A stretch of DNA of 64,000 nucleotides. Origin: a plasmid. The notes under the pieces were generated by a model that searched no databases, was not told the origin of the DNA, and was given only the letters and a program-made list of their open reading frames with translations. A program made the position numbers and the translations under genes. Below are positions 20,737 to 22,009 of the stretch, piece by piece. Location: assembly GCF_058153355.1 (NCBI RefSeq), contig NZ_JBLWLY010000002.1. One strand, written 5' to 3'. Positions within the stretch are counted from its first letter, which is position 1, and each line of letters begins with the position of its first letter.

Positions 20737-20865
20737 ACATGCCGTGCGGGAAATTCCTCAGTTCCGTTTTCCAGCGGGGAAAATGACGACACTCGTCAGC
20801 CCGTTCACCGCCACCAAGCTCCAGTGCCCGTCGAAATGCCTTTATACGTAATACTCTTTCCTGTC

Positions 20866-21477
20866 TCATTTCTTCACCTTCCCGTCCTGGCGGGCCAGAG
20901 CCAGCAGTTCGGTCTGAAGCTGGCGGCCGTCCTCCCGGGCTTCCTTCAGCTCCGCCTTCGTGTCCTGCAGCTGCGCCGCCAGGTGTTCGCCGGTGGCGGT
21001 CAGGCGGGCCACCTGCTCGCGCAGCGGCAGCGCCTCCGTGCGCAGCTCGCGTACCTCCTGCAGCAGGCGGTCACGTTCGGCCACCACCTCGCGCAGCACC
21101 GCCAGCTCGCTTTCCAGCGCGGCCACGTTCGCCAGCGCCTCATCCCGCTCCTTGTCGGCCCGGGCAATGTCGTCGTCGGCCTGCTCGCGCGCCGCCAGGG
21201 CCCCGGCTTCAGCCTGTTTCACGGCCGCCTGCCACAGCAGCCCCAGCTGGCCGGTCAGCAGCTGCGCCAGCTCCGGCGGCAGGGGCGTGGCCTGCTCAGC
21301 GGCCTGCTCGCGCTGGCGGGCGCGGAACGCGCGCATCACCGGGGAGATGTGGGACAGGGAGCCGCCGCCGAGGTGCTGACGGACCTGCTCGTTGGTCGGG
21401 TTCGGGGTGCCGGCGGCGATCAGGGCGGCGGCGGCGTCTTCAATGCGGCGGACGGTGTCCGGGGAGAGGGATGTCAT
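20866..21477 (-). CDS. KfrA-like DNA-binding protein with alanine-rich coiled coil
   Basis: Start taken at MTSLSP; N-terminal segment resembles recalled RK2 KfrA; GC-rich. Confidence 0.55.
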   Translation of the reverse strand: MTSLSPDTVRRIEDAAAALIAAGTPNPTNEQVRQHLGGGSLSHISPVMRAFRARQREQAAEQATPLPPELAQLLTGQLGLLWQAAVKQAEAGALAAREQADDDIARADKERDEALANVAALESELAVLREVVAERDRLLQEVRELRTEALPLREQVARLTATGEHLAAQLQDTKAELKEAREDGRQLQTELLALARQDGKVKK

Positions 21478-22009
21478 GGTCTGGCTCCGGTTTCTCAGGG
21501 AATGGCGCCATCGTACGCCCGGTATGAAAAATACACAATACAATTCATACATACAGTACAGAACTTACATACACTCTTTCTCTTTTCCAGGTCAGATCCG
21601 ATTTCTGGTGGTCACGGATCCGCGGATCCTTCGCTGCCGTCCGTCGGCCAGATTTTACAGGATGTTGTGTTCATACCAGCTGACATAACACTGTATGTTG
21701 TGTTTATTCCCGTGTTCGCGAGCCAGTCATCAGCGGCAGAAAAGATCACTTCGCTTATTCACTGATCGTGATTCACTTCCGGAAATTCCTGAATCCAATA
21801 AAAATCGGATCATGGAAAAACAGTTATCCTGTAATTTAGCATGGTTACTACATTGCTGGTTATTATTATCACGGTTGCTTTTTATGTTGGTTATTGGTGT
21901 GAGTGTTAATAATAGCCTGATAACAATATTCCGTTGCCGGAGGCATGCTATAGCGTAATACTGGTGTATACTTAATTGTGTACAGAGAGTATGTAAGATG
22001 AGGTGTATT

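What the first reader, a model, noticed from the sequence alone, without database searches (positions are those of the whole stretch)
20737..21600. GC-rich KfrA-like gene next to an IS21-family end
A 203-aa protein with a KfrA-like N-terminus and an alanine-rich coiled coil lies in a markedly GC-rich block, unlike the low-GC virulence genes around it. KfrA is an IncP accessory protein, so with parDE and the KorB-like operon this is a third IncP-flavoured component on an F-like backbone.
Basis: partly seen in the sequence, partly recalled or inferred. Interest (0 to 1): 0.4.

Follow-up and report, generated by a model that had tools for sequence, protein, structure and literature searches.

The report
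Short KfrA gene beside IS21
This is a real, intact gene for a short KfrA-type DNA-binding coiled-coil protein with its own repeat operator, but the same gene is already annotated on hundreds of enterobacterial F-like plasmids such as pO157, so the finding is ordinary.

Summary
A 203-aa ORF lies on the minus strand at 20866-21477. It hits Pfam KfrA_N (E=3e-21), is 72.7% GC (GC3 0.90, the GC maximum of the window), and an IS21 end sits at 20739.

It is a true gene: dN/dS is 0.18-0.47 against diverged homologues. AlphaFold2 gives a three-helix head plus one 135-residue helix at pLDDT 94.8.

Its closest studied relative is KfrA of the IncU plasmid RA3, not IncP-1. The recognition helix is identical, and 9 of the 10 residues essential for RA3 repression are conserved. 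The published RA3 operator motif TGTATTGTA recurs as a direct-repeat array at 21534-21573, over a probable promoter. I therefore read it as an autorepressed accessory protein of plasmid maintenance.

IS21 has cut its translationally coupled 206-aa partner gene after codon 43.

The "IncP-flavoured import" reading is only partly right. The protein is 97.5-99.5% identical to pO157 "KfrAs" and its relatives. It occurs in 516 PLSDB plasmids and 343 of 5,426 complete E. coli genomes, usually divergent from ccdAB-resD. The window has no IncP backbone genes and no KorA/KorB operators. The gene is not universal in IncF: F and pSLT lack it, although pSLT TlpA is also a KfrA_N protein.

Already known; low interest.

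The parts
20866..21477 (-). Short kfrA-type gene (203 aa): N-terminal HTH head (residues about 6-61) plus a single long helix (68-202).
   Evidence: Pfam KfrA_N E=3e-21. dN/dS 0.18-0.47 against six homologues. AlphaFold2 pLDDT 94.8 with helices 6-21, 29-36, 41-61 and 68-202. Heptad periodicity of the tail p about 0.002. 99.5% identical to the pFT130-2 protein and 97.5% to pO157 KfrAs.
21485..21488 (-). Shine-Dalgarno GGAG, 7 nt before ATG 21477.
   Evidence: Read from the sequence. CGGAG is invariant in the 7-sequence upstream alignment.
21510..21538 (-). Putative kfrA promoter: -35 TTGTGT (21538-21533), 17-nt spacer, -10 TACGAT (21515-21510). This is an inference.
   Evidence: Read from the sequence. 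The -35 lies inside the invariant block TGTATTGTGTA and GTACGATG is conserved in four of seven homologues. RA3 kfrAp likewise has its -35 TTGTAT inside the repeats (PMC7783346). The strict consensus scan found no promoter.
21534..21573 (-). Operator-like array of direct repeats of the RA3 KfrA motif TGTATTGTA: TGTATGTAA 21573-21565 (degenerate), TGTACTGTA 21560-21552, TGAATTGTA 21547-21539, TGTATTGTG 21542-21534.
   Evidence: 3 of the 13 matches with at most 1 mismatch in the whole 64 kb lie here, all on the gene's strand. No cluster of 3 appeared in 30 shuffles, and TGTA density is the maximum of the window. Arrays are conserved in pO157, pFT130-2, Salmonella, Serratia, Yersinia and Klebsiella homologues, and pO157 and pFT130-2 are longer by 9 and 18 bp. 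The same motif lies upstream of two distant short KfrAs at 36-37% identity. The motif is the published RA3 operator.
20720..20869 (-). Remnant of the translationally coupled partner gene (ATGA overlap with the kfrA stop). 43 native codons (20741-20869) are fused to 6 IS21-derived codons, with a stop at 20722-20720.
   Evidence: 95% identical to residues 1-43 of the 206-aa protein that follows kfrA in pO157 and pFT130-2. Homology to uninterrupted plasmids starts at 20740.
19466..20739 (-). Left end of an IS21 copy (terminal base 20739; istA 19466-20638), in the same orientation as kfrA. Its istB is itself truncated (19077-19469, 130 aa).
   Evidence: Alignment with the complete IS21 copy at about 48.4-50.5 kb and with pFT130-2. 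ORF list. PLSDB annotation 'IS21-like element IS21 family transposase'.
22010..23240 (+). Divergently transcribed F-type maintenance genes ccdA (22010-22228), ccdB (22230-22535) and resD (22536-23240). This is the conserved neighbour of the kfrA-type gene.
   Evidence: 100% and 99% identity to F CcdA and CcdB, and 85% to F ResD with an internal deletion. The same arrangement occurs in pO157, pFT130-2, Salmonella and Klebsiella plasmids.
20686..21765 (+). 359-aa antisense ORF, not a gene. It is an artefact of GC-rich coding DNA on the other strand.
   Evidence: No Pfam family. Its GC3 of 0.675 is lower than its GC1 of 0.758, whereas the minus-strand frame shows the coding pattern GC3 0.90.

Best explanation
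The feature is an intact gene for a short (203-aa) member of the KfrA family. The protein has a small helix-turn-helix head and one long coiled-coil-forming helix.

The head is of the RA3 (IncU) type. The gene is preceded by an array of direct 9-bp repeats of the RA3 operator motif TGTATTGTA, which overlaps the probable -35 element. The most likely mechanism is that dimers or oligomers, held together by the helical tail, bind this array and repress their own promoter. By analogy with RA3 and R751, the DNA-bound protein would also serve as an accessory factor for stable plasmid inheritance.

The gene is a long-established, compositionally foreign (GC3 0.90) passenger of the maintenance region of enterobacterial F-like plasmids of the pO157 and ETEC type. 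There it lies divergent from ccdAB-resD and is translationally coupled to a 206-aa gene of unknown function. In this window IS21 has cut that partner after codon 43, so only KfrA and its operator remain.

Shown here: gene reality, family membership, architecture, conservation of the HTH and of the repeat array, the IS21 junction, and the distribution.
Inferred: DNA binding, autorepression, the promoter position and the maintenance role.
For: Family and selection:
- KfrA_N E=3e-21.
- dN/dS 0.18-0.47.

Architecture:
- AlphaFold2 gives three short helices plus helix 68-202 at pLDDT 94.8.
- The tail shows heptad periodicity, p about 0.002.

DNA-binding head:
- In the region N29-R52, 19 of 24 residues match RA3-type KfrA.
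- N29, V32, R33, S40, L41, I44, P46, M48 and R52 are identical; W51 is F. These are the residues whose alanine substitution abolishes RA3 repression.

Operator:
- The RA3 operator is TGTATTGTA, and at least 2 adjacent units suffice for repression in vivo.
- Three units with one mismatch each lie within 27 nt, 57-83 nt upstream of the ATG. No such cluster appeared in 30 shuffles, and TGTA density here is the highest in the window.
- The array is conserved in seven homologues down to 72% protein identity, with an invariant TGTATTGTGTA block. pO157 and pFT130-2 are longer by 9 and 18 bp.
- TGTAT-type clusters lie upstream of two short KfrAs at only 36-37% identity.
- The IncU locus reproduces the published operator.

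Context and distribution:
- Conserved neighbourhood and ATGA-coupled partner gene.
- IS21 junction at 20739/20740.
- Distribution.
Against: - Nothing here tests binding, repression or any effect on plasmid stability.
- The window's array is the shortest of the set and has no perfect 9-mer.
- The strict sigma-70 scan found no promoter.
- The tail is less than half the length of studied KfrAs (135 against about 290 residues) and lacks RA3's 35-aa repeats. Filament formation and partner contacts may therefore differ.
- No KfrB/KfrC homologue and no adjacent korA-incC-korB operon are present.
- The operon is disrupted by IS21, so the biological role may already be lost.
- One 51%-identical relative has no such repeats upstream.
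Confidence: 0.8

Rival explanations
1. One reading: the gene is an IncP-1-derived component that, with parDE and a KorB-like operon, gives this F-like plasmid an IncP-type maintenance set.
For: The KfrA family was first described on IncP-1 plasmids (PMC7783346). GC3 of 0.90 resembles R751 kfrA at 0.92. A ParA plus KorB-domain ParB operon lies at 8645-10566. RA3 KfrA interacts with IncC and KorB.
Against: - The HTH and operator are of the IncU/RA3 type, and R751 identity is lower.
- tblastn finds no R751 ParD, ParE, KorA, KorB, KfrB, KfrC, KlcA or KorC in the window, and no OA or OB operators.
- The gene lies in a conserved F-type context in hundreds of plasmids.
- The ParAB operon is 10 kb away, across IS elements and virulence genes.
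- KfrA_N proteins are already native to IncF virulence plasmids, for example TlpA.
Confidence: 0.08
2. The ORF is a chance open frame in GC-rich DNA and encodes nothing.
For: GC-rich DNA yields long ORFs. Three overlapping ORFs of at least 139 aa exist here on the two strands.
Against: - Pfam hit far above the cut-off.
- Purifying selection in this frame.
- Coding-type GC1/2/3 pattern.
- 491 representative clusters of homologues.
- Confident fold prediction.
- The antisense ORFs have no family.
Confidence: 0.01
3. It acts like TlpA of the Salmonella virulence plasmid: a coiled-coil thermosensor whose DNA binding is lost on warming, and which may regulate genes beyond its own promoter on this virulence plasmid.
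For: TlpA is a KfrA_N protein on an IncF virulence plasmid. KfrA coiled coils show partial unfolding at 37-42 C and are Ala-rich, which destabilises them (PMC7821693). The window carries virF and ipaH.
Against: - Identity to TlpA is insignificant, 23-29% at E>3 in a small database.
- The operator motif clusters only at the gene's own promoter in the 64 kb.
- The gene is common on plasmids that carry no Shigella virulence genes.
Confidence: 0.1
4. The locus is a decaying remnant. With the partner gene cut by IS21 and the repeat array shortened, kfrA is no longer functional here and persists only because the disruption is recent.
For: The partner gene is truncated at codon 43. The array is 9 and 18 bp shorter than in pO157 and pFT130-2. 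The neighbouring resD carries an internal deletion. The surroundings are IS debris.
Against: The kfrA ORF is intact and differs by 1 residue in 203 from pFT130-2. Three adjacent repeat units remain, and RA3 data show that 2-3 suffice in vivo. Some homologues, in Yersinia and Salmonella Minnesota, naturally lack the partner.
Confidence: 0.15

Closest known systems
pO157 'KfrAs' (NP_052633) and the PGAP 'DNA-binding protein' of pFT130-2 and ETEC plasmids
   Same: Same gene: 97.5-99.5% amino-acid identity. Same upstream repeat array and same divergent ccdAB-resD neighbour.
   Different: In this window the 206-aa partner, the 66-aa ORF and RepFIB that follow it in pO157 are replaced by IS21. The window's repeat array is one 9-bp unit shorter than pO157's. 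pO157 lacks four residues (EQAA). Database annotations start 24-28 codons too early.
KfrA of IncU plasmid RA3 (Lewicka et al. 2021, PMC7783346)
   Same: KfrA_N head with an identical recognition helix SLSHISPVMR. 9 of 10 essential residues are conserved. The same 9-nt operator motif TGTATTGTA is iterated over the -35 element. A helical tail follows the head.
   Different: - Only 39% identity in the nine-sequence alignment and 42% over 160 aa by tblastn.
- 203 against 355 aa, with no 35-aa tail repeats.
- All repeats are direct, whereas RA3 has 3 direct and 2 inverted.
- No kfrC, and not placed next to korA-incC-korB.
- The host plasmids are narrow-host-range F-like and mostly non-mobilizable.
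KfrA of IncP-1 plasmids (R751; RK2)
   Same: KfrA_N head plus an Ala-rich coiled coil, a very high GC3, and an autoregulated accessory stability gene.
   Different: - 38% identity over 112 aa by BLASTP and 30% in the nine-sequence alignment.
- The R751 promoter carries a KorB operator and a different TGTTGTA-type inverted repeat.
- The RK2 operator is a 24-nt palindrome.
- The kfrA-kfrB-kfrC operon has no counterpart here.
TlpA of Salmonella virulence plasmid pSLT
   Same: A KfrA_N head followed by a long coiled coil, carried on an IncF virulence plasmid. It is described as a temperature-dependent DNA binder.
   Different: No significant pairwise similarity. 371 aa. Located elsewhere on the plasmid, next to parAB rather than ccdAB.

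Membership tests
KfrA family (Pfam KfrA_N, PF11740) | N-terminal KfrA_N helix-turn-helix domain | tested here: met
   E=3e-21, 76.7 bits against a gathering score of 26.1, covering profile positions 3-113 of 113. AlphaFold2 gives a three-helix head at pLDDT above 90.
KfrA family (Pfam KfrA_N, PF11740) | Long alpha-helical coiled-coil tail C-terminal to the head | tested here: met
   Single helix 68-202 at pLDDT 95-99. Hydrophobic periodicity of 3.45 residues, p about 0.002. The tail is shorter than in studied members. Oligomerisation itself was not tested.
KfrA family, RA3 (IncU) clan | Residues of the HTH shown by alanine scanning to be essential for repression | tested here: met
   N29, V32, R33, S40, L41, I44, P46, M48 and R52 are identical, and W51 is F. 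G37-G39 are conserved.
KfrA family, RA3 (IncU) clan | Iterated 9-nt operator (TGTATTGTA) overlapping the gene's own promoter | tested here: met
   Three one-mismatch units at 21534-21560 plus a degenerate unit at 21565-21573. The array is conserved across homologues, and the -35 candidate lies inside the last unit. This shows presence of the motif only.
KfrA family | Sequence-specific binding to the operator and autorepression | not testable with these tools
   Needs EMSA or a reporter assay.
KfrA family as organised in IncP-1 and IncU | Linked kfrB/kfrC partner gene(s) | tested here: not met
   The downstream gene is unrelated to R751 KfrB and KfrC, has no Pfam or PADLOC family, and is truncated here.
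KfrA family as organised in IncP-1 and IncU | Position in the central control/stability region beside korA-incC-korB, with KorA/KorB operators at the promoter | tested here: not met
   No OA or OB site in the window and no R751 KorA or KorB match. The neighbours are ccdAB-resD-repE. A ParA plus KorB-domain ParB operon lies 10 kb away.
KfrA family | Interaction with ParA/ParB segrosome proteins and contribution to plasmid stability | not testable with these tools
   Needs two-hybrid and stability assays.
IS21 | Terminal sequence and istA identical to a complete copy | tested here: met
   The 180 bases up to 20739 match the complete IS21 copy at about 50.3-50.47 kb, with two mismatches near the tip. 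Target-site duplication cannot be checked because the other end is missing.

The most novel reading that the evidence does not exclude
Short KfrAs of F-like virulence plasmids share both the recognition helix and the 9-nt operator with IncU RA3 KfrA. The two could therefore cross-repress each other's promoters when the plasmids co-reside, as a hidden regulatory or incompatibility link between F-like and IncU plasmids. The 9-bp copy-number polymorphism of the array (this window, then pO157, then pFT130-2) could set the level of expression. The short KfrA may also act as a DNA-anchored scaffold that recruits whichever variable partner is translationally coupled to it.
Probability: 0.15. Interest if true: 0.4.

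Novelty: already known. Interest (0 to 1): 0.15.

Why it matters
It matters little for discovery. The gene, its family and its operator type are already described, and the identical gene has been annotated on pO157 and hundreds of other plasmids.

Three modest points have some value:
- Database start codons for this gene (227-231 aa forms) are probably 24-28 codons too long, because they run through the promoter/operator.
- The short F-plasmid KfrAs can be assigned a specific, testable operator by homology with RA3.
- The locus records plasmid mosaicism. A pO157/ETEC-type maintenance segment sits in a pINV-like virulence plasmid and has been eroded by IS21.

Tried and rejected
- The strict sigma-70 and terminator scan of 20600-22100 found nothing. 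The promoter proposed here is weaker than that scan's threshold and rests on conservation.
- Rfam at E<=0.1 over 19000-24000: no RNA family.
- Sequence search of the PDB gave only coiled-coil noise. Foldseek against the PDB gave nothing below E=0.48, and the weak hits were all generic HTH domains. No solved KfrA structure was found in either search.
- PADLOC gave only weak LmuB coiled-coil hits for KfrA, so it is not a defence protein. The partner genes had no PADLOC or Pfam family.
- RA3 (DQ401103) and RK2 (BN000925) could not be fetched. An IncU plasmid with an RA3-type KfrA (L011) and R751 were used instead.
- No record in PLSDB or in the complete E. coli genomes contains the IS21/kfrA junction, so the source plasmid was not identified.
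- Candidate repeats D1 (21657-21710) are partly conserved (ACACAACATA block). They do not match the KfrA motif and were not pursued.
- I considered that the high GC could come only from the Ala/Leu/Arg/Glu-rich composition. This was rejected because GC3 is 0.90 and synonymous codons are almost all G/C-ending.

Full report
**1. Observation**

The region holds overlapping ORFs on both strands. The minus-strand ORF 20866..21552 carries the signal. From ATG 21477 it encodes 203 aa. A GGAG lies 7 nt upstream at 21488-21485.

Pfam KfrA_N (PF11740) matches at E=3e-21, 76.7 bits against a cut-off of 26.1, from the tenth residue of the 203-aa form. NCBIfam gives only weak SMC/Rad50-type coiled-coil noise.

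The protein is 18% Ala, 14% Leu, 11% Glu and 10% Arg. The gene is 72.7% GC with GC1/2/3 = 0.82/0.46/0.90. That makes it the GC maximum of a window averaging 48.4%.

GC drops to 48% in the 75 nt upstream of ATG 21477, and the remnant of the downstream gene is 53% GC. The island is therefore essentially one gene.

The 359-aa antisense ORF and a 139-aa ORF have no Pfam family.

**2. It is a real gene under selection**

Against homologues from pO157, a Salmonella IncI plasmid, Serratia, Klebsiella, Yersinia and S. Minnesota, dS runs from 0.006 to 1.07 and dN/dS is 0.18-0.47.

AlphaFold2 was run on a 49-sequence alignment of ~200-aa relatives and other short relatives (up to 237 aa). It gives mean pLDDT 94.8, with helices 6-21, 29-36 and 41-61 (an HTH head) and one uninterrupted helix 68-202.

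Core hydrophobic residues of the tail have a 3.45-residue periodicity. Only 0.2% of shuffles reach the observed power at 3.5.

No solved structure resembles the model significantly.

**3. Which kind of KfrA**

| Comparison | Result |
|---|---|
| IncU plasmids of Aeromonas and Pseudomonas (tblastn) | about 42% identity over 160 aa |
| R751 KfrA (IncP-1 beta), BLASTP | 38% over 112 aa |
| Nine-sequence alignment: IncU / R751 / TlpA | 39% / 30% / 26% |

One of the IncU hits (L011) is a 355-aa KfrA of RA3 type.

The RA3 study maps the HTH to N29-R52. It reports that alanine substitution of N29, V32, R33, S40, L41, I44, P46, M48, W51 or R52 abolishes repression (PMC7783346). In the window protein all of these are identical except W51, which is F. 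The recognition helix SLSHISPVMR is identical.

A search of 1.84 billion cluster representatives finds 491 clusters at E<=1e-3. Many are full-length proteins of about 200 aa at 30-55% identity. They share the consensus PTNxQVRxxLGGGSLSHISPVMREWR ... ERDEAL ... LQxELxxLAK. The short form is therefore a subfamily, not a truncation.

**4. Operator**

The RA3 operator consists of five copies of TGTATTGTA around the promoter. Two adjacent copies suffice for repression in vivo, and three or four give full sensitivity.

In the window, 3 of the 13 matches with at most one mismatch lie within 27 nt, all on the gene's strand:
- TGTACTGTA at 21560-21552
- TGAATTGTA at 21547-21539
- TGTATTGTG at 21542-21534

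A degenerate unit lies at 21573-21565. None of 30 block shuffles produced a cluster of three. This is also the densest TGTA stretch of the 64 kb.

An alignment of seven upstream regions shows that the array is conserved down to 72% protein identity, with an invariant TGTATTGTGTA block. Perfect TGTATTGTA units occur in pO157, pFT130-2, the Salmonella IncI plasmid, Serratia and Yersinia. pO157 and pFT130-2 are longer than the window by 9 and 18 bp, that is, by whole repeat units.

Two short KfrAs at only 36-37% identity, from unrelated contigs, also have TGTAT-type clusters just upstream. One 51%-identical copy, sitting behind a dehydrogenase gene, has none. The IncU locus reproduces the published three-direct-plus-two-inverted arrangement.

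A plausible promoter is TTGTGT (21538-21533), a 17-nt spacer, then TACGAT (21515-21510). Its -35 lies inside the last repeat, as in RA3. This is inference, and the strict consensus scan found nothing.

The promoter/operator lies inside the 25-codon extension of the 228-aa ORF, so the 227-231-aa database models are probably too long. Diverged homologues are annotated at the short start.

**5. Surroundings**

- Homology with uninterrupted plasmids begins at 20740, and the IS21 terminus is at 20739.
- In pO157, pFT130-2, a Salmonella IncI plasmid and Serratia, kfrA overlaps by ATGA a 202-206-aa gene of unknown function. These partners are 46-98% identical to each other and have no Pfam or PADLOC family. 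They are unrelated to KfrB and KfrC.
- A Klebsiella plasmid has a different 354-aa partner, also ATGA-coupled.
- In the window only 43 codons of the partner survive, fused to six IS21 codons.
- IS21 points the same way as kfrA, and its own istB is truncated.
- On the other side, ccdA and ccdB (100% and 99% identical to F) and resD are transcribed divergently, followed by repE, which is 95% identical to F RepE.
- The same divergent arrangement of integrase, ccdB and ccdA against kfrA recurs in the relatives.

**6. Distribution**

| Search | Result |
|---|---|
| ORF by megablast, PLSDB | 516 of 72,556 plasmids (395 Escherichia; 350 non-mobilizable) |
| ORF by tblastn, PLSDB | 576 plasmids |
| ORF in complete E. 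coli genomes | 343 of 5,426; 336 places on plasmids and 12 on chromosomes, mostly pO157 |
| Neighbouring ccdAB-resD-repE-parA-parM block, PLSDB | at least 5,000 plasmids |

The best matches to the neighbouring block start at window position about 21593 or about 21983, so they lack kfrA.

F has pifC upstream of ccdA. pSLT has other genes in that slot, and its TlpA, encoded elsewhere, is itself a KfrA_N protein.

The gene also occurs on IncI-gamma/K1, IncFII and untyped replicons. It is listed as a stability gene 'kfrAs' on Salmonella IncI1/IncFIB plasmids (PMC3401170). Shigella is not among the ten genera listed for the hits.

A S. dysenteriae pINV shares the flanking virulence and IS segments but not window 18233-28400. 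The kfrA-ccdAB-repE block therefore looks like an E. coli F-type maintenance segment within a pINV-like mosaic.

**7. The IncP claim**

tblastn with R751 ParD, ParE, KorA, KorB, KfrB, KfrC, KlcA and KorC finds nothing in the window at E<=1e-3. IncC matches the ParA at 8645-9535 at 27% identity. No OA or OB operator is present.

The ParB at 9535-10566 does carry a Pfam KorB domain. It lies 10 kb away, beyond IS elements and ipaH/virF.

The very high GC3 (0.90, against 0.92 in R751 kfrA and 0.69 in the IncU gene) argues for an origin in a high-GC replicon at some time in the past. However, the gene has long been resident in enterobacterial F-like plasmids, and its head and operator are of the RA3 type.

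**8. Verdict**

The feature is a known, widely annotated short KfrA gene with a recognisable RA3-type operator. It is most likely an autorepressed accessory maintenance protein, and IS21 has cut its partner gene.

Novelty: already known. Interest is low.

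Noticed in passing
window 22536-23240: The resD tyrosine-recombinase gene is 234 aa instead of 268. An in-frame internal deletion of about 31 residues (WNTGARINEALALTRGDFSLAPPYPFVQLAT) lies between two LATL repeats. It removes the conserved box-I arginine region, so the multimer-resolution enzyme is probably inactive.
   Followed up: partly
window 21534-21573; L002 and L001 upstream of kfrA: The TGTATTGTA-type repeat array differs by whole 9-bp units between this window, pO157 (+9 bp) and pFT130-2 (+18 bp). It is longer still in the Salmonella and Serratia homologues. This is a copy-number polymorphism of the presumed operator.
   Followed up: partly
L001 1563-3744; L009 5609-7790: In pFT130-2 and a Salmonella IncI-gamma/K1 plasmid, kfrA and its 206-aa partner are followed by a DUF2971 gene and an abortive-infection family gene. 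The latter hits PADLOC AbiJ at E=3e-9. This suggests a small defence cluster downstream of the kfrA operon, and it is absent from the window because of IS21.
   Followed up: partly
window 18151-20739 and 48399-50470: The IS21 copy next to kfrA has a truncated istB (130 aa, 19077-19469) that abuts another IS21-family istA fragment (18151-19038). A complete IS21 copy (istA 49196-50368, istB 48399-49199) lies 28 kb away in the same orientation and could mediate deletion of the DNA between the two copies.
   Followed up: no
window 18233-28400: The block IS21 - kfrA - ccdAB - resD - repE - parA-like - parM fragment is absent from the best-matching Shigella dysenteriae pINV, which shares only the flanking ipaH/virF and IS segments. 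No PLSDB plasmid or complete E. coli genome contains the IS21/kfrA junction.
   Followed up: partly
window 21951-22020: The ccdA promoter region has the highest plus-strand TGTA density of the window, 4 in 60 nt (GTGTATAC...TTGTGTACA...GTATGTAAG...GTGTATT). The ccdA coding sequence that follows (from 22010) encodes a protein identical to F CcdA, and F lacks kfrA. The TGTA density may therefore belong to the ccd promoter/operator rather than to a second KfrA site, but the promoter region itself was not compared with F or tested.
   Followed up: no
window 21657-21710: Two 21-nt direct repeats lie 33 nt apart in the kfrA-ccdA intergenic region (minus strand GGTATGAACACAACATCCTGT and GGAATAAACACAACATACAGT). 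The ACACAACATA core of one copy is conserved in pO157, Salmonella and Serratia homologues. Its function is unknown.
   Followed up: no
window 26623-27246: The ParM (StbA_N) ORF is only 207 aa and matches only the N-terminal ParM (StbA_N) domain. The type II partition ATPase downstream of repE may therefore be truncated.
   Followed up: no
L013 3001-3603: A 51%-identical short KfrA on a 12.6-kb metagenomic contig sits directly behind catabolic genes (Rieske oxygenase, reductase, alcohol dehydrogenase). It has no TGTAT repeats upstream and an altered recognition helix (SLSNISPVMRNFR).
   Followed up: no
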